Shown here: piece after piece, positions 31,112 through 62,618 of the stretch | Numbering within the stretch: the first letter of the stretch is position 1 | How the letters are laid out: each line of letters starts with the position of its first letter | Sequence record: PZ445428.1 | DNA: 64,000 nucleotides | Direction: 5' to 3' (one strand) | Source: a phage | The notes under the pieces: model-generated | Told to the model about the DNA's origin: nothing | What the model saw: the letters and a program-made list of their open reading frames with translations, nothing else | Databases searched by the model: none | Made by a program: the position numbers and the translations under genes

Positions 31112-31885
31112 TTAGTCGTCCAGATCGCTAGCAGCTTCTGCATCGATACCTTTCTGGGAACCAGCTTCGGAACCACCCTTAGCATCGCCACCTTCCTGCT
31201 TCTCACGTCCTTCCATGAAGGCATCTACTGCTTCTTTCTGTTCTTCGTAAGACGGAACCGGATAGGTTTCTTCCAGAGAAGGAACTTTCTCGAACTTCAG
31301 GAAATCGCCATTTTCATCGCTCAGTGCTTCACCGAGGATATCTACATCAGCAGCGTGTAACTTAGACTCAGCACTGTTAGGATCTTTCAGTTTCATCTGG
31401 AACTGCATTGCTGCAATCTGTTGTACATCGTACTCAGTTTCGAAGCCTTTACCTTTCTTCTCGATAGAGATATCGATATCGAACGGATCGGATAGTTCAA
31501 GCTGTTTCATGATAGACTTGATGCCTTTCAGGATAGTAGCTTTAACTTCCATTACTTTCAGTTTGTTATCAGAACGGTCGATAACGAAAGCGATGTAGTT
31601 CTTCTTAGGTTTCAGCGGAACACGATTACCCTCTTTGTCCAGATCTTTCTCGAAGAAGCCCATTTCATGGATCGGGTCAGCTTTACCACGAACAAAGCTC
31701 TCTTTAGTACGGTTGAAACGCAGGCACTCAAACGGAGCTGCATTACCATCTTTGTTAGTCAGCCAGTAGACATAACGCGGAAGAACACCAGAAACGATAC
31801 GAACACGAGTGATACCGTTGTTGAATTTCAGGAAGTCGATTTTATCGTTAGAACCGCCAGTAGTTTCGCCCCAAGACTTAGCCAT
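31112..31885 (-). CDS. Hypothetical protein with acidic C-terminal tail
   Basis: 257 aa, GAGGAA RBS, C-terminus ...GGDAKGGSEAGSQKGIDAEAASDLDD; an ssDNA-binding role is speculation. Confidence 0.3.
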   Translation of the reverse strand: MAKSWGETTGGSNDKIDFLKFNNGITRVRIVSGVLPRYVYWLTNKDGNAAPFECLRFNRTKESFVRGKADPIHEMGFFEKDLDKEGNRVPLKPKKNYIAFVIDRSDNKLKVMEVKATILKGIKSIMKQLELSDPFDIDISIEKKGKGFETEYDVQQIAAMQFQMKLKDPNSAESKLHAADVDILGEALSDENGDFLKFEKVPSLEETYPVPSYEEQKEAVDAFMEGREKQEGGDAKGGSEAGSQKGIDAEAASDLDD

Positions 31886-36880: not shown

Positions 36881-37742
36881 CTAAAATTTCAATACGTTGT
36901 GCTAACGTATCGATCTCTTCTTTATTAAGATCACCTGGGTCTTTTCCTTCAGGAAGAAGGAAGTTACCAACTACAGGTGTTAAACGTGTTTTTGTACGGA
37001 TTAATTTAGCCAATGCTTGGGCAGCTTTATTACCCGAAGCATCGTTATCTAGTAAGATAACTACTACTCTAACTCCAGCAATAATATATGGGCTGAACTT
37101 ATCTGCAATGTTATCAGAAGTAAACTGATGTGTACCAAAGCAACAAGAGGCATAGTTTATCCCATTATCTTCTAGGTTCAACATATCAAAGATGCCTTCA
37201 ACTAGAACGAGAACTGGAGTATTATATCGTACAGGAAAAATCGGGGGTGAAACTTGTTTAGGTTTTACTAAGTATTTAGGAGGGGCAGAACTGTTTATAG
37301 AACGACCCAGGAATAGGATATTACGTCCAACAGCATCTGTTATTGGGAACACGATTCTGCCTTCCCAGTCTGCTTGATGTTGGAAAGCAAAATATTTCTT
37401 CAAGGTCTTAGAACTGATACCTCGGAAATCACCTTCGAAAAGGTAAGCAGATTCAGGAATTGCAAGATTCGTAGATCCATTCCTGATCTCTGAAATCTTT
37501 TTACGTACTTGTGACAATCTTGGTGACTGTCTGTACTGAGTCTCATTAAAATAATGGTAAATGCTCGGTATACCTTTACCGAAGCCGCAACTCAAGCAAT
37601 GCATAACTCCTGATTCAGGATCAATACGTAAACTTGGGTGCTTATCATCATGATCTGGGTTGAGACAACAGATGAGGATGTCCCCACCTGTGTCTTTGTA
37701 TTCAATGCCTTTCAGATCAAGTAGTTCTGTTATCCTACTCAT
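36852..37742 (-). CDS. DNA primase (DnaG-like, zinc finger plus TOPRIM)
   Basis: CLNPDHDDKHPSLRI...HCLSCG zinc-binding motif and VEGIFDM TOPRIM-like motif. Confidence 0.7.
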   Translation of the reverse strand: MSRITELLDLKGIEYKDTGGDILICCLNPDHDDKHPSLRIDPESGVMHCLSCGFGKGIPSIYHYFNETQYRQSPRLSQVRKKISEIRNGSTNLAIPESAYLFEGDFRGISSKTLKKYFAFQHQADWEGRIVFPITDAVGRNILFLGRSINSSAPPKYLVKPKQVSPPIFPVRYNTPVLVLVEGIFDMLNLEDNGINYASCCFGTHQFTSDNIADKFSPYIIAGVRVVVILLDNDASGNKAAQALAKLIRTKTRLTPVVGNFLLPEGKDPGDLNKEEIDTLAQRIEILVAESLKDLV

Positions 37743-39211
37743 ATATCTTTGGCCTCTTCACCTGAGGAATTTTCTGGTTTTTCTTTCTTAGCACGTTTAG
37801 GTTGGGCTGGTTTATCCTTCTCGATCGGAATAACAAATTCAGCTTCCATTTGAGTGATATCTTCCATTGCCAAGTTAGTAGTGTTATCCATTCGTAGAGT
37901 TTCCCAGTTCATCTTAGGCATAAACTTCACACTATCAGAGGAACGAGTCTTAACGAAGTCAAACATAATAGCACCCTGACCATTATCAGCTTTAGCAGCA
38001 TTAAGGTTGGCAGCCATGTCTGCGGAATCAAGGATACCTTTAGACATACGAGTTCTACCGTCTTGATCAATCTGGTAAGGAGCTACACCAGCAACATTAT
38101 GTTTCTGGCATATAGATTTGAAAGATGAACTTACAACCATCTGCTCTTTCCAGTCATACATGTCAATGGTTTTGGAATCTGGAAGTCTAGTCTGGTTAAT
38201 GTAGTCCAGTAGAGCTACAGTAACTTTATCACCATACTTAGCAACTAGTTTGTTTAGTTCTACGTCTACTGTAGTAATGGAGAGTTCGGGATCATACACA
38301 ACGATCATTGGAGTATGTAACTCATGACTTTCTAACAGCTTACTTTCCATATCATAGAAGTCGCTCATTCTAGCCATTGTGTACTGCTTAACGAAGTTAT
38401 CGAAAAGTTCTTCACCACCATTAAACATTCTAGCCCTAGTTCTTGCTAATCTCAAAAGAGGAGCGCCATCAAGGGTGTTGTTACGCATTGCCAGTGCAGA
38501 TACACCAGCTAACATTGCTAAATTACGCCTAAACACTTCGTGCTCTTTCATCTCAATTGAGAAATATGGAGCAATGTCTCCATTCAAATATTGCTGAACC
38601 TGTATGTTTGAACAGATAATGGATTTACCAGTACCACGCCAACCACCAAGCAGTAACGTTTCTGTACGAGCTAAACCAATTTGCGCGTCGAACTCATTAC
38701 AAATACCAAGAGCAATCATGTTAAGTTTGGTATCTTCTTCTCTCTGGAAAATACGCATTGTGTCTGCGTTGAATACCTTTCCAGTATTCGTTACTTTCTC
38801 TTCTAATTTTAAGTGAAGGGAGGCAACCCTGTTGAGAATTTCTCCCTGATCCAGCATTGTTAAATCTTGAAGCACGTCTGTTTCTAGAAGTTTCAGGAAT
38901 AGATCCTGTGTATATTCAGCTTCTAGGACTTCAAGTGCCTGTTCCATGCTCACTTCTGGAATTTGAGTGTTAGCTAAGACGACTAGAGCTTGAGAAAGGC
39001 GGGCGTTCCTGTTGGCCTCAAGCATAAGTGCGTCAATGGACGGCATTGCGTTATATTTTTTATAATAATTCTGGACGGCTTGGTAAATTGAGGAGAAAGC
39101 GTCATTAAAATGATCTTTATGCAGTTTTGAGAATGTTTCCAATGCTATTTGTTTCTGTTCAGAAGCCAGAAGCATCTTCAACACTACAGCTTGCACGTTA
39201 AACAAGGTCAT
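37739..39211 (-). CDS. DnaB-like replicative helicase
   Basis: Walker A LLGGWRGTGKS in C-terminal RecA-like domain. Start set to ATG 39211 after AAGGAGAA; track ORF begins at 39262. Confidence 0.65.
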   Translation of the reverse strand: MTLFNVQAVVLKMLLASEQKQIALETFSKLHKDHFNDAFSSIYQAVQNYYKKYNAMPSIDALMLEANRNARLSQALVVLANTQIPEVSMEQALEVLEAEYTQDLFLKLLETDVLQDLTMLDQGEILNRVASLHLKLEEKVTNTGKVFNADTMRIFQREEDTKLNMIALGICNEFDAQIGLARTETLLLGGWRGTGKSIICSNIQVQQYLNGDIAPYFSIEMKEHEVFRRNLAMLAGVSALAMRNNTLDGAPLLRLARTRARMFNGGEELFDNFVKQYTMARMSDFYDMESKLLESHELHTPMIVVYDPELSITTVDVELNKLVAKYGDKVTVALLDYINQTRLPDSKTIDMYDWKEQMVVSSSFKSICQKHNVAGVAPYQIDQDGRTRMSKGILDSADMAANLNAAKADNGQGAIMFDFVKTRSSDSVKFMPKMNWETLRMDNTTNLAMEDITQMEAEFVIPIEKDKPAQPKRAKKEKPENSSGEEAKDI

Positions 39212-39216
39212 TCTCC

Positions 39217-39262
39217 TTTGCACGCTTTCGTGCCTTCTAAATGCAAAAAGGGGAAGGAGCAT
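39217..39262 (-). terminator. Terminator-like GC-rich hairpins after DNA-binding repeat protein gene
   Basis: Minus strand GGGGAGGGGG...CCTTCCCC then TTTTT, and GCACGAAAGCGTGC (GAAA loop) just before the next RBS. Confidence 0.4.
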
Positions 39263-39293
39263 AGCCCCCTCCCCTTAGGTTTAATTTACCAGA

Positions 39294-40061
39294 TTATTCA
39301 GCAGCCGCAGCTTTTGCATCCAGTTTAGCACGCTTAGCAGCACCATCATAGTCCTTAGCAACCAGACCACGACGAGACAGCATAGATTTAACACCGCGCT
39401 CAGACTTACCAGTTTTCTCAGCGATATCAGCAACAGTCATGTTAGCCAGATCCAGACCTTCTAACAGATCTTCGCGAGTTTTAGCGCTTGAAGTTTCCTG
39501 TACCGGCATTGCAGCGATACGACCTTCACGAAGCAGGCTCAGAGCTTTACCACGGATCTGCTTGATATTGCGACCGAAGTGAGCAGCGATAGCTTCAATA
39601 GTTGCACCAGCAACAACCTGATTAACGAAATCAGTTTCTTCGTCAGGAGTGAAGGAACGAACGGCAGCAGCTTTTTCAGTTGGCTTAACAGCAGCAGTCA
39701 TTTCCAGACTCAGAATCTTACCCTGTACCTGCTTAGCACCGAACTGACCACCAGCTACAGCAGCAGCGATTTCAGCGTAGGTATACTGACCAGCATGAGA
39801 GTTCAGGAAATCAACCAGTTCAGCTTCCTGCTCAGGAGTCCACGGGGATTTCTGTACTTCGTTAGCTTTCTGTACTTCGAAGCCTTCTTTACGCAGCTTA
39901 GAACCAACAGAGCGGGCGGTTACGTCCTTGCCAGTTTCAGCAGCCAGTTCTACAGCGATAGCAGCAACTTGTTCTTGAGAGATTACAGCTACACCCAGAG
40001 CAACGGCTTTAGCTTTCAGAGACTCGGTTACACCTTCTACGTTCCAGTTCAGTTTAGACAT
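39294..40061 (-). CDS. DNA-binding protein with four internal HTH-like repeats
   Basis: 255 aa; four repeats of about 50 aa each ending in an HTH-like segment (e.g. TVADIAEKTGKSERGVKSMLSRRGL); strongly biased codon usage. Confidence 0.5.
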   Translation of the reverse strand: MSKLNWNVEGVTESLKAKAVALGVAVISQEQVAAIAVELAAETGKDVTARSVGSKLRKEGFEVQKANEVQKSPWTPEQEAELVDFLNSHAGQYTYAEIAAAVAGGQFGAKQVQGKILSLEMTAAVKPTEKAAAVRSFTPDEETDFVNQVVAGATIEAIAAHFGRNIKQIRGKALSLLREGRIAAMPVQETSSAKTREDLLEGLDLANMTVADIAEKTGKSERGVKSMLSRRGLVAKDYDGAAKRAKLDAKAAAAE

Positions 40062-40063
40062 TA

Positions 40064-40834
40064 TTATTTTTTCTCCAATAGTTCTTTAATCGACAGGATT
40101 TCTATCCCATTCGTTTCGGCTTTCTTATAAGATGAGGAAGAACGCTTTGATTCATCCTCACAGATGAGGTAGTTTACGTCTTTGGTAACGGACTTCTTAA
40201 CCGTATATCCTAGACTTTCTAAGTAGTTTGTTGCATCCGTTCTATTTGCAAAATCTTGCAAAGAACCGGTAATACATACCACGATTCCGTTCGGTTGAGC
40301 AACTAAATCATCGATAAAGATGATATCAGCTTTTGTGCCCCGAATACCAGAACTAAATTTCCATGGTAGTTCGATAACATCCTTGCCTTGTGGGGAATTT
40401 AGCCAGGCTTTATAATTTTCTCCAGCTTTGCCGTCAGCCTTAACATCATTAAAACTAATGCAACCCTGGGATAGCTTTTTAGCAGCAACCTCTCCAATCA
40501 GAGGGATTCCTAAAGAACCGAGAACTGAACCAAAGTCAATGTCTCCGCGAACCTTAGTATTTAACTCGCTAATTAACTTAGCGGCAACCTTACTTCCCAC
40601 AGCTCCGACCAAATCTTCTTCGGTCAGGTAAAACAGTTCTGAGATCTTAGTCAGTTCCAGCTTTTCAATTGTTTTCGGGCCAAAGCCCTTTAACTTCATC
40701 TTTGTGCAGAAGTTCTCAATTAACTTACTTGACTGAGCTGGACAGTTGGACTTATTCCGACAGAATAATTGTCCGTTGACAAGATCTAGCTTAGAACCAC
40801 AAGAGGGACATTGTGTTGGAATTTCGATTTTCAT
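40064..40834 (-). CDS. ligB: NAD-dependent DNA ligase, C-terminal part (zinc finger/HhH/BRCT-like)
   Basis: Begins CPSCGSKLDLVNGQLFCRNKSNCPAQ (LigA-type Cys4 zinc finger) then HhH-like GFGPKTIEKL. ATG at 40834 after AAGGAAG. Confidence 0.7.
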   Translation of the reverse strand: MKIEIPTQCPSCGSKLDLVNGQLFCRNKSNCPAQSSKLIENFCTKMKLKGFGPKTIEKLELTKISELFYLTEEDLVGAVGSKVAAKLISELNTKVRGDIDFGSVLGSLGIPLIGEVAAKKLSQGCISFNDVKADGKAGENYKAWLNSPQGKDVIELPWKFSSGIRGTKADIIFIDDLVAQPNGIVVCITGSLQDFANRTDATNYLESLGYTVKKSVTKDVNYLICEDESKRSSSSYKKAETNGIEILSIKELLEKK

Positions 40835-40866
40835 CAAATTTCTTCCTTATCAATTTATATAACTAT

Positions 40867-40895
40867 TATAGCAAGTATTTAAGCATTTAGCAACT
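40867..40895 (-). promoter_or_regulatory. Early promoter cassette inside the ligA-ligB spacer
   Basis: Minus strand TTGCTA-17 nt-TATAAT then AGTTATATAAATTGATAAGGAAG and ATG 40834. Confidence 0.5.
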
Positions 40896-41040
40896 ACAAT
40901 TTTAACTAACTTTGCTTACCCTCGCCATAACTTTCTATCCCTCAACTGAATGATAATAGTATATACCTAAGCGGCGAAAATGTCAATAACCACTTTATAA
41001 TTCCGACATGGGAAACGGGTAGCAAAGGGTTATGAATTAC

Positions 41041-42012
41041 TTAATCTACTCGCTCTACAATACATGGGATTACACCACCAGCACGAATCACTCGAATCTG
41101 GCAACCGATCTCTAAATCGAGAGCGTTAATGTAATCAACGTTATTGAGAGTTGCTTTAATAATCTTGGCATCGTCAATAATTACCGGTTCGAAATATCCA
41201 ACAGGAGTTACTTTACCAGAAGCCCCTACCTGCCACTCAACTTTGAGAAGAGTTGTAATTTCGCCTTCTTCATCTTGTTTAATTGCATAAGCACCACGAG
41301 GATGTTTATTTGTCCAACCTTCACGGAAGAATTTGTTGTTGTCATTAATACGAACAACTTTACCATCCATTGGATACCAGTTGAAGTAGTTTTTAATATT
41401 CAGTACAGTGATGAAATCTTCGTTAGCTAACCAAGACATATCATCTAAGTAAGAGCCTGTAATACCTACAGAATCTTCGGAACACTGAATACCATAAGCT
41501 ACAAAGATCAATCCACCTTCCGCAATACGTTCGATGAAGTCATCTTCTTCTTTTAAGTTAATAGCACCAGAAGCGTAGTTACGTTTGTTTTCTACTTCTT
41601 TAGTGATAAGAACTTCACCAGTGATTTGAGTTGGTACTTTCTGAGAAATCTTTTTCGGAATGTTCAGCAATCTAACGTTGCTTGTGACATCATTTCCTAG
41701 AATACCATTACCACGAGTTAACGCTTGAACAAACGTTCCGTCGATATACAACAGAGAAATTGCGCAACCGTCTAGCTTATCAGTTTCTACATCATCAAGA
41801 GTAGTGAATGGAGCTTTATCACCCCGATCGAAGTAAACTTTCTGCAAAGAATACATACGATACAGATGTGGGATATCACCTTTCGGACCGATGGCATCTT
41901 CCGCTGTTGGGAAACGTTTAAGCAGACGATCATACTCAGCATCAGAGATAATACTATAACCCTGATAATACGCTTCTTGACAACGTTGGATAAACTCTTT
42001 TACATTATTCAT
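41041..42012 (-). CDS. ligA: NAD-dependent DNA ligase, N-terminal adenylation/OB part
   Basis: KLDGCAIS (KxDG adenylation motif), N-terminal AYYQGYSIISDAEYDRL NAD-binding-like segment. Start set to ATG 42012 (MNNVKEF); track begins at TTG 42054. Confidence 0.75.
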   Translation of the reverse strand: MNNVKEFIQRCQEAYYQGYSIISDAEYDRLLKRFPTAEDAIGPKGDIPHLYRMYSLQKVYFDRGDKAPFTTLDDVETDKLDGCAISLLYIDGTFVQALTRGNGILGNDVTSNVRLLNIPKKISQKVPTQITGEVLITKEVENKRNYASGAINLKEEDDFIERIAEGGLIFVAYGIQCSEDSVGITGSYLDDMSWLANEDFITVLNIKNYFNWYPMDGKVVRINDNNKFFREGWTNKHPRGAYAIKQDEEGEITTLLKVEWQVGASGKVTPVGYFEPVIIDDAKIIKATLNNVDYINALDLEIGCQIRVIRAGGVIPCIVERVD

Positions 42013-42205
42013 CGTCGGCGATTTCCATCTTGAGTTCTTTATTATACTGCGCAACCATACCAGCTAAATCAGCAGATTCTTTCAGAAACGCATCTCTGTA
42101 CGCTTTTTGATTTACTGTGCCGATACTATCTTGATATTTAATGCGAGCCATTGAAAGCAAATTAAGTTTTGCTTGAATTTTGGGAAGTGTTACTGTCATT
42201 GCCAT
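42005..42205 (-). CDS. Hypothetical small protein
   Basis: 66 aa from ATG 42205, which follows the conserved GAGAGGA cassette RBS; stop overlaps ligA start. Confidence 0.35.
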   Translation of the reverse strand: MAMTVTLPKIQAKLNLLSMARIKYQDSIGTVNQKAYRDAFLKESADLAGMVAQYNKELKMEIADDE

Positions 42206-42983: not shown

Positions 42984-43394
42984 TTATTTAGTGATAGCTC
43001 GGACAGCTTCTGCCAGATGAGCAGCTGCTTTACCAGTCAGCTTGTCGATAATCGCTGAATCCAGGAAGTCTGGAGCCAGACCTGCATCAGAGAATGCAGA
43101 CAGAAGATCGGCATGAGCCTGAGCTTTAGAAGTACGAGAACCGCCAGAAGCTTTTTCTCCAGTAGATGCAGTTGATTTGGAAGCAGAGCCAGCAGCTTTC
43201 TTGATATACAGACCCGCTTTAGTCAACTTCATACGGAAGCCGTTCGGAGTTACACCGTTTTCCTGAGCGATTTCGCTAACAATTTCCATGCTAACGCCCG
43301 GACGCTCATCTTCTGGGAATTGCTCCATACGAGCAACGTAATCGGAAGACATTTTTTCGAACAGTTCATCAGTCCACTGAGTTGGAGTAGTCAT
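42984..43394 (-). CDS. Hypothetical protein
   Basis: 136-aa ORF with biased codon usage, own promoter. Confidence 0.4.
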   Translation of the reverse strand: MTTPTQWTDELFEKMSSDYVARMEQFPEDERPGVSMEIVSEIAQENGVTPNGFRMKLTKAGLYIKKAAGSASKSTASTGEKASGGSRTSKAQAHADLLSAFSDAGLAPDFLDSAIIDKLTGKAAAHLAEAVRAITK

Positions 43395-62102: not shown

Positions 62103-62618
62103 ATGGCTAAGCAGAAAAACGCAAAAACTCAGGCAGCTCCAGCAGTTAAGACTTTCCCGCAGACCGAAGCTAATCGTAAGGCTCGTCTGGAACGTCATCT
62201 GCGTAAGCATCCTGAAGATGTTCAGGCTGCACAAGCTCTGGGTCGTCCGGCTCCTGTTCGTCAGAAACCGAAGGCTAAAAACTCAACCCGAGCTGTAGCT
62301 AAACAGGTTGTGTTCATCAAAGGTGAAGGCCACAAGTCTGTACCTGTAACCCTGGGCTTCAACGGTGGAGCTGAAATGTTCTCCCGTAAGGACATGTCCC
62401 CGAAAGAGTACGAAAAAGCAGTTAATCAGAAACGTAAGCCAATGGCCGACGTATTCCGTGAAACTCGCGGCCAGTTCGGCTCTGTTAAACCGAATATCTT
62501 CGGTGTAGAGTATAGCCGTGACAACGTTCGCGCTCTGTGCTACGGCATTGGCATCAAGTTCACTGGTGCTTCTGATCGTAAATCCGCTAAACCGGCTCGT
62601 AAGCGTAAAGCGAAGTAA
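62103..62618 (+). CDS. Highly basic protein, codon-optimised (putative abundant nucleic-acid-binding protein)
   Basis: 171 aa, Lys/Arg-rich termini (…KPARKRKAK), codon usage like capsid gene; strong promoter upstream, hairpin downstream. Confidence 0.4.
   Translation: MAKQKNAKTQAAPAVKTFPQTEANRKARLERHLRKHPEDVQAAQALGRPAPVRQKPKAKNSTRAVAKQVVFIKGEGHKSVPVTLGFNGGAEMFSRKDMSPKEYEKAVNQKRKPMADVFRETRGQFGSVKPNIFGVEYSRDNVRALCYGIGIKFTGASDRKSAKPARKRKAK

What the first reader, a model, noticed from the sequence alone, without database searches (positions are those of the whole stretch)
39294..40061. Codon-optimised protein built from four HTH-like repeats
The 255-aa protein has four successive modules of about 50 aa, each ending in a helix-turn-helix-like segment, and uses the same biased codons as the capsid gene, suggesting high expression. 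A multi-HTH protein could coat or bend DNA and might switch host or phage transcription; its position matches an early DNA-binding protein described in T5-type phages.
Basis: partly seen in the sequence, partly recalled or inferred. Interest (0 to 1): 0.4.

Follow-up and report, generated by a model that had tools for sequence, protein, structure and literature searches.

The report
T5 D5 DNA-binding protein orthologue
This gene encodes the already described D5 protein of T5-type phages, an abundant early double-stranded-DNA-binding protein, and its only modest addition is that the protein can be read as four small helix-turn-helix DNA-binding domains in a row.

Summary
ORF 39294..40061 (-) encodes 255 aa. 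An AlphaFold2 model (pLDDT 90.7, pTM 0.44) shows four separate HTH modules and a C-terminal helix; module 4 has only two clear helices. By sequence, modules 2 and 3 are clear repeats (hhalign 96%, P 4.6e-9). Modules 1 and 4 are only weakly similar to them.

Codon bias is real. Nc is 32.4 against 31.7 for the major head gene, with RSCU r = 0.94. Flanking replication genes have Nc 49-56 and r 0.31-0.47.

The protein is 97% identical to phage T5 D5 and lies between ligase B and the replicative helicase. The window is an Epseptimavirus close to Salmonella phage S124. D5 was described in 1979 as a DNA-binding protein affecting replication and late gene expression. A 2026 preprint shows its HTH fold triggers a type IX retron.

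Most likely it is a monomeric, stoichiometric dsDNA coat that binds through four recognition helices.

Verdict: already known, low interest.

The parts
39294..40061 (-). D5 gene: 255-aa, 27.0-kDa protein, calculated pI 6.8, no Cys, 45 Ala
   Evidence: ORF. 97% identical to T5 D5. PHROG 323 at E 2.7e-70. Composition.
39858..40049 (-). Module 1 (aa 5-68): tri-helical HTH, helices 11-22, 29-43 and 49-58. The third (recognition) helix is ARSVGSKLRK.
   Evidence: AF2 model. Weak Pfam hits to HTH_33 and Tc3-type HTH. GcrA DBD aligns over 45 columns, P 7e-4. Helix 3 conservation is 0.89. The T5 retron-escape mutation G53D lies here.
39678..39848 (-). Module 2 (aa 72-128): tri-helical HTH starting with a Myb-like W-T-x-E-x-E. 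The third helix is AKQVQGKILS, with Q113, G114 and K115 invariant.
   Evidence: AF2 model. M2 vs M3 hhalign 96%, P 4.6e-9. Weak Myb hits. Invariant columns.
39495..39659 (-). Module 3 (aa 135-189): tri-helical HTH. The third helix is IKQIRGKALSLLR, with G171 and K172 invariant.
   Evidence: AF2 model. Pfam HTH_23, EutK_C and HTH_28 hits. GcrA DBD vs M3 72.5%, P 3.3e-5.
39339..39485 (-). Module 4 (aa 193-241): degenerate module with only the two HTH helices (210-217, 221-231). It follows a conserved linker in which P186, Q188 and D198 are invariant and L200 nearly so.
   Evidence: AF2 model. Sigma70_r4_2 at 204-230, 28.3 bits against a gathering score of 25.7; the family is matched in 24 of 28 relatives. 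Invariant columns.
39297..39344 (-). Conserved C-terminal Ala/Lys-rich helix (aa 240-255, GAAKRAKLDAKAAAAE)
   Evidence: Helix 240-254 in the AF2 model. Conservation 0.71; G240 invariant, R244, K246 and D248 nearly invariant. Its function is inferred only.
39248..39276 (-). Intrinsic-terminator-like hairpin (13-pair stem, 8 G-C pairs) plus a T run, starting 18 nt after the D5 stop codon
   Evidence: It is a consensus match only.
40865..40986 (-). Two sigma-70-like promoter matches upstream of ligase B, which abuts D5. The ligB stop TAA lies 2 nt before the D5 ATG.
   Evidence: TTGACA-17-TATACT (11 of 12) and TTGCTA-17-TATAAT with TG (10 of 12). The region as a whole holds no more matches than its shuffles. 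Junction read.
40073..40076 (-). GGAG Shine-Dalgarno-like motif, 11 nt upstream of the D5 ATG
   Evidence: Read directly from the sequence.

Best explanation
This is the orthologue of phage T5 gene D5 in an Epseptimavirus, close to Salmonella phage S124.

Shown: the protein is a single chain of four small HTH DNA-binding domains of the GcrA-DBD / Myb-like tri-helical type. Short linkers join them and a conserved C-terminal helix follows. The gene uses the codon set of the most abundant phage proteins.

Inferred mechanism: the protein is made in stoichiometric amounts early in infection. As a monomer it places its four recognition helices into successive major grooves of double-stranded DNA. 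Binding would come mostly from backbone contacts (the invariant Gly-Lys of helix 3), so it would have high avidity and little sequence specificity. By coating phage DNA it would shape the template used for replication, for shut-off of early genes and for expression of late genes. The conserved tail may mediate neighbour or partner contacts.
For: Identity:
- 97% identical to T5 D5 and in the same cluster as D5_BPT5.
- PHROG 323 at E 2.7e-70.
- Conserved synteny in S124 and in Vibrio phage Thalassa.

Architecture:
- AF2 pLDDT 90.7 with pTM 0.44, i.e. independent domains.
- M2/M3 repeat P 4.6e-9.
- Pfam HTH hits in each module.
- hhalign of the GcrA DBD against the M2+M3 profile gives 92.4%, E 5.1e-7, while shuffled controls reach at most 2.7%.

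DNA contact surface:
- Helix 3 is the most conserved element of every module, 0.72-0.89 against 0.51-0.80 for helices 1 and 2 (0.51-0.65 except helix 2 of module 2, 0.80).
- GcrA G38-K39 aligns with the invariant G114-K115 and G171-K172. K39 contacts the DNA backbone and K39A impairs GcrA function (PMC5887438; alignments).

Abundance:
- Nc 32.4, in a set with major head, major tail, SSB and the D3-like DNA-binding protein.
- The same bias is seen in the Vibrio phage orthologue: Nc 31.4 against 46-57 for its neighbours.
- D5 is among the major proteins by mass spectrometry in phiR2-01 virion preparations (PMC8624392).

Function from the literature:
- It has a role in early shut-off, late transcription and replication (PMC10194208).
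- T5 D5 is a 26-kDa monomer by mass photometry. It is predicted (AlphaFold3) to bind the retron msDNA through an HTH and remodels the retron complex in vitro. It is toxic when expressed alone (bioRxiv 10.64898/2026.07.11.737809).
Against: - No DNA-binding, footprint or expression data exist for this window; all function is carried over from T5.
- The protein is near neutral (calculated pI 6.8) and module 2 is acidic (pI 4.7). That is unusual for a non-specific DNA coat.
- Module 4 lacks a clear first helix.
- Sequence-level relatedness of modules 1 and 4 to modules 2 and 3 is marginal.
- Low sequence specificity is inferred only from the loss of GcrA's base-reading residues.
- How DNA coating would turn late genes on is not explained.
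Confidence: 0.75

Rival explanations
1. D5 is a specific transcription factor or sigma-70 cofactor. One or more modules would read a motif in late promoters, or replace or appropriate sigma region 4. The conserved tail or the linker would dock on host RNA polymerase, directly redirecting it from early to late promoters, much as GcrA equips sigma-70 holoenzyme with an extra DNA-binding domain.
For: - Module 4 passes the Pfam gathering score for Sigma70_r4_2 (28.3 against 25.7 bits), and 24 of 28 relatives match it.
- The closest solved domain is the DBD of GcrA, a sigma-70 cofactor (PMC5887438).
- D5 mutants affect late gene expression.
- The switch from early to late T5 transcription by sigma-70 RNAP is still unexplained (PMC7472727).
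- The linker residues P186 and Q188 are invariant and the C-terminal helix is conserved, which suggests a protein-protein interface.
Against: - No match to sigma region 2, or to the GcrA family (PF07750) for the window protein, was found in Pfam at E up to 10. Only 2 of 28 relatives give a weak GcrA hit.
- GcrA's base-reading residues R33, N34, H41 and R42 are not conserved.
- Capsid-like codon bias, shared with SSB, points to stoichiometric rather than regulatory amounts.
- D5 was not named among RNAP-associated T5 proteins in the passages of PMC7472727 that I read.
Confidence: 0.2
2. D5 is primarily a replication accessory factor. It would be a duplex-DNA clamp or coat that controls where the T5 polymerase, helicase and ligase act, for example at the natural nicks of T5-type DNA. 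The transcription effects would then be secondary to the failure of replication.
For: - The gene sits inside the replication module, ligA-ligB-D5-helicase-primase-polymerase. It abuts ligB and this order is conserved across two Demerecviridae subfamilies.
- D5 affects DNA replication.
- It is co-biased with SSB.
- From my own memory, not checked here: 1980s in vitro work reported that D5 protein modulates T5 DNA polymerase on duplex templates.
Against: - No domain other than HTH modules is present, and there is no detectable similarity to clamp, loader or primosome proteins.
- The literature available here lists transcription and replication phenotypes together without ordering them.
Confidence: 0.15
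3. The four-module pattern is a chance impression in an Ala-rich helical protein, and the codon bias is merely a composition effect.
For: - The protein is 18% alanine.
- M1 and M4 score only marginally above controls with the M2+M3 HMM.
Against: - M2/M3 P 4.6e-9.
- The AF2 model has four separate HTH units at pLDDT above 90.
- Different Pfam HTH families hit each module.
- GcrA DBD aligns in register with all four modules, well above shuffles.
- RSCU r is 0.94 with the head gene against 0.31-0.47 for adjacent genes.
- The bias is conserved in a 50%-identical Vibrio phage orthologue.
Confidence: 0.01

Closest known systems
Phage T5 D5 protein (UniProt D5_BPT5, 'Putative transcription factor D5'; T5.118; PHROG 323)
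   Same: 248 of 255 residues are identical, the length is the same, and the gene has the same position and neighbours. All four positions mutated in the T5 retron escaper (G53, W74, V149, G232) are unchanged here.
   Different: Seven substitutions: V20T, A25D, V37A, S88A, A124S, A206V and D212E, written as window residue, position, T5 residue. None lies in a third helix. The host range of the phage differs (Salmonella Epseptimavirus rather than E. coli Tequintavirus).
GcrA DNA-binding domain (Caulobacter crescentus; PDB 5YIU/5YIW; Pfam PF07750, N-terminal part)
   Different: D5 has four such domains in tandem instead of one. It has no match to the GcrA family as a whole, which includes the sigma-70-interacting C-terminal domain. 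It lacks GcrA's base- and methyl-reading residues R33, N34, H41 and R42, so a preference for m6A-GANTC is not expected.
Sigma-70 region 4 (Pfam PF08281 / PF04545)
   Same: The HTH of module 4 matches profile positions 23-49 of 54 above the gathering score. The GcrA DBD itself is reported as structurally close to sigma region 4.
   Different: There is no region 2 or region 3 and the match is partial. NCBI's name 'sigma-70 region 4 domain-containing protein' describes one module, not the protein.
Tandem Myb/SANT and paired HTH arrays (c-Myb R1R2R3, SNAPC4, Tc3/Mos1 bipartite DNA-binding domains, SelB C-terminal winged-helix array)
   Different: The regularly spaced tryptophan triad of Myb repeats is absent; only W74 is conserved. 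All sequence matches fall below family thresholds.

Membership tests
T5 D5 protein family (PHROG 323) | Full-length sequence similarity to T5 D5 | tested here: met
   97% identity over 255 of 255 residues. PHROG 323 at E 2.7e-70, covering 1-253. Same 90% cluster.
T5 D5 protein family (PHROG 323) | Position in the early replication module, between NAD-ligase subunit B and the D6 helicase | tested here: met
   Window ORFs. S124 annotation. The same order is found in Vibrio phage Thalassa.
T5 D5 protein family (PHROG 323) | Binds double-stranded DNA; needed for replication and late gene expression | not testable with these tools
   Known only from the T5 literature.
Sigma-70 family | Region 2 (core binding and -10 recognition) | tested here: not met
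   No Sigma70_r2 hit in Pfam at E up to 10. The whole chain is accounted for by four HTH modules and a tail.
Sigma-70 family | Region 4 HTH | tested here: inconclusive
   Sigma70_r4_2 at 28.3 bits against a cut-off of 25.7, but only profile positions 23-49 of 54 are matched.
GcrA family (PF07750) | N-terminal three-helix DNA-binding domain | tested here: met
GcrA family (PF07750) | C-terminal sigma-70 region 2 interacting domain | tested here: not met
   PF07750 does not match the window protein at E up to 10 and matches only 2 of 28 relatives, weakly. The region after module 4 is a single 15-residue helix. I did not run a direct comparison with the interacting domain on its own.
GcrA family (PF07750) | Base- and methyl-reading residues R33, N34, I37, H41, R42 | tested here: not met
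   The aligned D5 residues in module 2 are A109, K110, Q113, L117 and S118. Only G38-K39 is kept (alignments; GcrA contacts from PMC5887438).
Myb/SANT repeat proteins | Three regularly spaced Trp (or aromatic) residues per repeat; Pfam Myb_DNA-binding above threshold | tested here: not met
   Myb_DNA-binding scores 18.0 bits against a cut-off of 24.4. Only W74 is conserved.

The most novel reading that the evidence does not exclude
D5 could be a phage-encoded, chromatin-like temporal switch. In this reading a monomeric array of four GcrA-type DNA-binding domains coats replicating phage DNA. Through its conserved linker and C-terminal helix it would then hand sigma-70 RNA polymerase over from early to late promoters. 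That would address how T5-type phages switch gene classes without a sigma factor of their own, a mechanism that describes as still unknown. The evidence here does not exclude this, and it does not specifically support the RNAP hand-over step either.
Probability: 0.12. Interest if true: 0.5.

Novelty: already known. Interest (0 to 1): 0.15.

Why it matters
It matters little as a discovery. D5 has been a named T5 gene product since the 1970s, is annotated in hundreds of Demerecviridae genomes, and was recently shown to be the HTH trigger of a type IX retron.

The useful by-products are descriptive:
- A clear domain map: four GcrA-DBD-like modules, with helix 3 the most conserved element and an invariant Gly-Lys in modules 2 and 3.
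- Evidence from codon usage, conserved from Salmonella to Vibrio phages, that D5 belongs with head, tail, SSB and D3 in the stoichiometric class of proteins. This favours a DNA-coating role over a classical low-copy regulator.
- The expectation that this Salmonella phage would also be sensed by D5-triggered retrons.

These points could guide mutagenesis of D5, for example helix-3 Gly-Lys mutants module by module.

Tried and rejected
- PDB sequence search with the family profile found no solved D5 relative. The best hit was an engrailed homeodomain at E 0.013.
- The hit of the M2+M3 profile to 'CAP REPEAT' 8vd6 (E 3.8e-10) is a sum of five weak matches of 7.6-8.3 bits to identical repeat units. 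I discounted it.
- I considered and rejected a sigma factor and a full GcrA homologue (see membership tests).
- I considered protection of phage DNA from restriction. I set it aside because D5 is an early gene on second-step-transfer DNA and would not exist when that DNA enters. This is inference and was not tested.
- The antisense ORF 39579..40130 (+), 183 aa, I treated as a by-product of the strongly biased coding strand and did not test it separately.
- Literature searches for the original D5 biochemistry mostly failed: McCorquodale 1979 (PMC353123) is not held, and several searches failed because of the three-character limit on search terms.
- The search for T5.118 and 'D5-like' returned only unrelated poxvirus and antibody papers.

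Full report
**1. What is at the coordinates.**

ORF 39294..40061 on the minus strand starts with ATG, ends with TAA and encodes 255 aa. The stop codon of the upstream gene, NAD-dependent DNA ligase subunit B (40064..40837), lies 2 nt before the ATG. A GGAG motif lies 11 nt upstream of the ATG. A hairpin with a 13-pair stem and a T run (39276..39248) starts 18 nt after the stop codon. Two sigma-70-like promoter matches lie upstream of ligB. These are consensus matches only, and the region as a whole holds no more of them than its shuffles. Downstream come a replicative helicase, a primase and DNA polymerase I.

**2. The repeat observation.**

An AlphaFold2 model built on 28 family members has mean pLDDT 90.7 but pTM 0.44. 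That combination means well-defined domains whose mutual orientation is not fixed.

- Modules 1 to 3 are three-helix bundles: 11-22/29-43/49-58, 76-88/95-101/109-118 and 139-150/155-162/166-178.
- Module 4 keeps only the two HTH helices (210-217, 221-231).
- A conserved helix at 240-254 ends the chain.

I cut the family alignment into modules and compared the pieces with hhalign.

| Pair | Probability | P |
|---|---|---|
| M2 vs M3 | 96% | 4.6e-9 |
| M3 vs M4 | 58% | 1e-4 |
| M1 vs M4 | 27% | 7e-4 |
| M1 vs M2 | 9% | 3.6e-3 |

An HMM of M2+M3 detects M1 and M4 in register in most family members. The scores barely exceed reversed and shuffled controls: maxima of 13.0 and 6.3 bits against 4.3 bits. 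Pfam places a different HTH family on each module:

- M1: HTH_33 and Tc3-type HTH.
- M2: Myb and HTH_32.
- M3: HTH_23, EutK_C and HTH_28.
- M4: Sigma70_r4_2.

Only the Sigma70_r4_2 hit is above its gathering score. Their common origin is proven by sequence for the middle pair and is plausible for the outer two.

**3. The codon observation.**

D5 has Nc 32.4. The lowest values among 52 ORFs of at least 100 aa are the major head gene (31.7), the D3-like gene (32.1), then D5 and the SSB gene (both 32.4); the major tail gene follows at 37.2. RSCU correlation between D5 and the head gene is 0.94. For the adjacent helicase, ligase B and primase it is 0.47, 0.31 and 0.38. The preferred codons are the classic set of highly expressed enterobacterial genes: GCT, CTG, GGT, CGT, ACT, TCT, ATC, GAA, CAG and TTC.

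The bias is conserved. In Vibrio phage Thalassa the roughly 50%-identical D5 gene has Nc 31.4, while its neighbours have 46-57. High expression is an inference from this. It agrees with D5 being among the major proteins by mass spectrometry in phiR2-01 virion preparations (PMC8624392).

**4. Identity.**

- tblastn finds the protein in 903 phage records. The match is 100% to Salmonella phage S124, an Epseptimavirus of the Demerecviridae.
- Annotations read 'D5 protein', 'putative transcription factor D5' or 'late gene transcription factor'.
- The protein is 248/255 identical to T5 D5 and shares its 90% cluster.
- PHROG 323 'transcriptional regulator, D5-like' matches at E 2.7e-70.
- The gene order D3 ... 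ligA ... ligB-D5-helicase-primase-polymerase is kept in a different subfamily, Ermolyevavirinae.
- A scan of 1.84 billion representative proteins gives only 504 relatives at E up to 1e-3, mostly 235-260 aa. Rare five-module variants occur (P0136 at 309 aa, P0202 at 283 aa). A few unrelated long proteins carry 4-8 copies of a similar module.

**5. What the modules resemble.**

- No solved structure of a D5 relative exists.
- That sequence aligns to the M2+M3 profile at 92.4% probability, E 5.1e-7, over 47 columns.
- It also aligns in register to each module separately: 25.6%, 11.5%, 72.5% and 13.3%. Shuffled GcrA reaches at most 2.7%.

According to the GcrA structure paper, the DBD is a monomeric three-helix bundle whose helices 2 and 3 enter the major groove. 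K39 contacts the backbone and K39A impairs function. R33, N34, I37, H41 and R42 read bases and the methyl groups (PMC5887438). In D5 the Gly-Lys pair is invariant in modules 2 and 3 (G114-K115, G171-K172), and module 1 has G53-S54-K55. The base-reading residues are not kept.

In every module helix 3 is the most conserved element: 0.72-0.89 against 0.51-0.65 for helices 1 and 2, except helix 2 of module 2 at 0.80.

**6. Mechanism.**

Shown:
- Four independent HTH domains on one chain.
- Conservation concentrated on the putative DNA-contacting helices.
- Codon usage typical of the most abundant phage proteins, including SSB.

Taken from the literature:
[quoted passage not shown] It is also involved in early shut-off (PMC10194208).
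- T5 D5 is a 26-kDa monomer by mass photometry and is toxic on its own.
- It is predicted (AlphaFold3) to bind the retron-Kva2 msDNA through an HTH, and it remodels the retron complex in vitro.
- The T5 escape phage carried G53D, W74*, V149I and G232D in D5 (bioRxiv 10.64898/2026.07.11.737809). All four positions are unchanged in the window protein.

Inferred: one monomer engages several successive major grooves, mainly by backbone contacts. This would give avid, largely sequence-independent coating of duplex DNA. The coat would condition the template for replication and for the early-to-late transcription switch. The conserved tail and the invariant linker residues P186 and Q188 may be interaction sites.

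From memory only: older biochemical papers described cooperative binding of D5 protein to double-stranded DNA and effects on T5 DNA polymerase. I could not retrieve them.

Points that fit the coat model poorly: the protein is near neutral (pI 6.8) and module 2 is acidic.

**7. Rivals.**

- A specific sigma-70 cofactor of the GcrA kind remains possible (0.2). The protein lacks any match to sigma region 2 or to the GcrA family as a whole, and its expression class argues for stoichiometric use.
- A primarily replicative role (0.15) is compatible with the gene's position. The two rivals and the best explanation overlap.
- A chance pattern is excluded.

**8. Comparison and verdict.**

This is a member of the T5 D5 family. 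It is not a sigma factor, not a GcrA family member and not a Myb protein, although its modules share that tri-helical HTH fold. The four-fold GcrA-DBD-like reading is a small descriptive refinement. I did not find it stated in the text of the 2026 preprint, which speaks of 'a helix-turn-helix motif'.

Novelty: already known. Interest: low.

Noticed in passing
window 37739..39262 (-): The longest ORF of the replicative helicase (D6-like) starts at an ATG at 39262 that lies inside the terminator-like hairpin after D5. S124 is annotated with this long form. The Vibrio phage orthologue begins MINVQAVVLK, which aligns with MTLFNVQAVVLK at Met18 (ATG at 39211), and an AAAGGAGA motif precedes that ATG. 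The true start is probably 39211, which would make the annotated first 17 codons spurious.
   Followed up: partly
window 42984..43394 (-): The D3-like protein (136 aa) matches PHROG 1725 'DNA binding protein' at E 1.9e-48. It has the same extreme codon bias as D5 (Nc 32.1, RSCU r 0.84 with D5). Its residues 29-68 align weakly with D5 module 1 (hhalign 41%, P 2.8e-4...VTPNGFRMKLTKAGLYIKKA against VTARSVGSKLRKEGFEVQKA). It may be a paralogue of the D5 module. In T5, retron-Kva2 escape mutations also fell in D3.
   Followed up: partly
window 31112..31885 (-): A 257-aa protein with Nc 32.4 and RSCU r 0.92 with the head gene is the T5-type single-strand DNA-binding protein (PHROG 1607, E 8e-102). 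The codon-optimised set in this window is therefore head, tail, SSB, D3 and D5.
   Followed up: yes
window 62103..62618 (+): A 171-aa ORF has the highest GC in the window (0.50), fairly strong codon bias (Nc 37.5, RSCU r 0.90 with the head gene) and a Lys/Ala-rich N-terminus. It matches only PHROG 4516, of unknown function. It is probably another abundant early protein that has not been characterised.
   Followed up: partly
window 40838..41040, between 40064..40837 (-) and 41041..42054 (-): The NAD-dependent DNA ligase is split into two genes, A and B, separated here by about 200 bp that carry the two best promoter-like matches of the region. In Vibrio phage Thalassa three small ORFs sit in the same gap.
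   Followed up: no
proteins P0136 (309 aa), P0202 (283 aa), P0262, P0266, P0269, P0277: Some D5 relatives have five modules through duplication of module 2 or module 3. Unrelated long proteins carry 4-8 or more tandem copies of a similar W/F-[ST]-x-E-E ... G-x-[ST] ... I-A module, one of them behind a sigma-70 region 4-like N-terminus. Module number in this kind of array is evidently variable.
   Followed up: partly
window 39579..40130 (+): A 183-aa ORF runs antisense to D5. It is Ser/Phe/Leu-rich, as expected for the complement of a GCT/GAA/CTG-biased gene. I regard it as non-coding.
   Followed up: no
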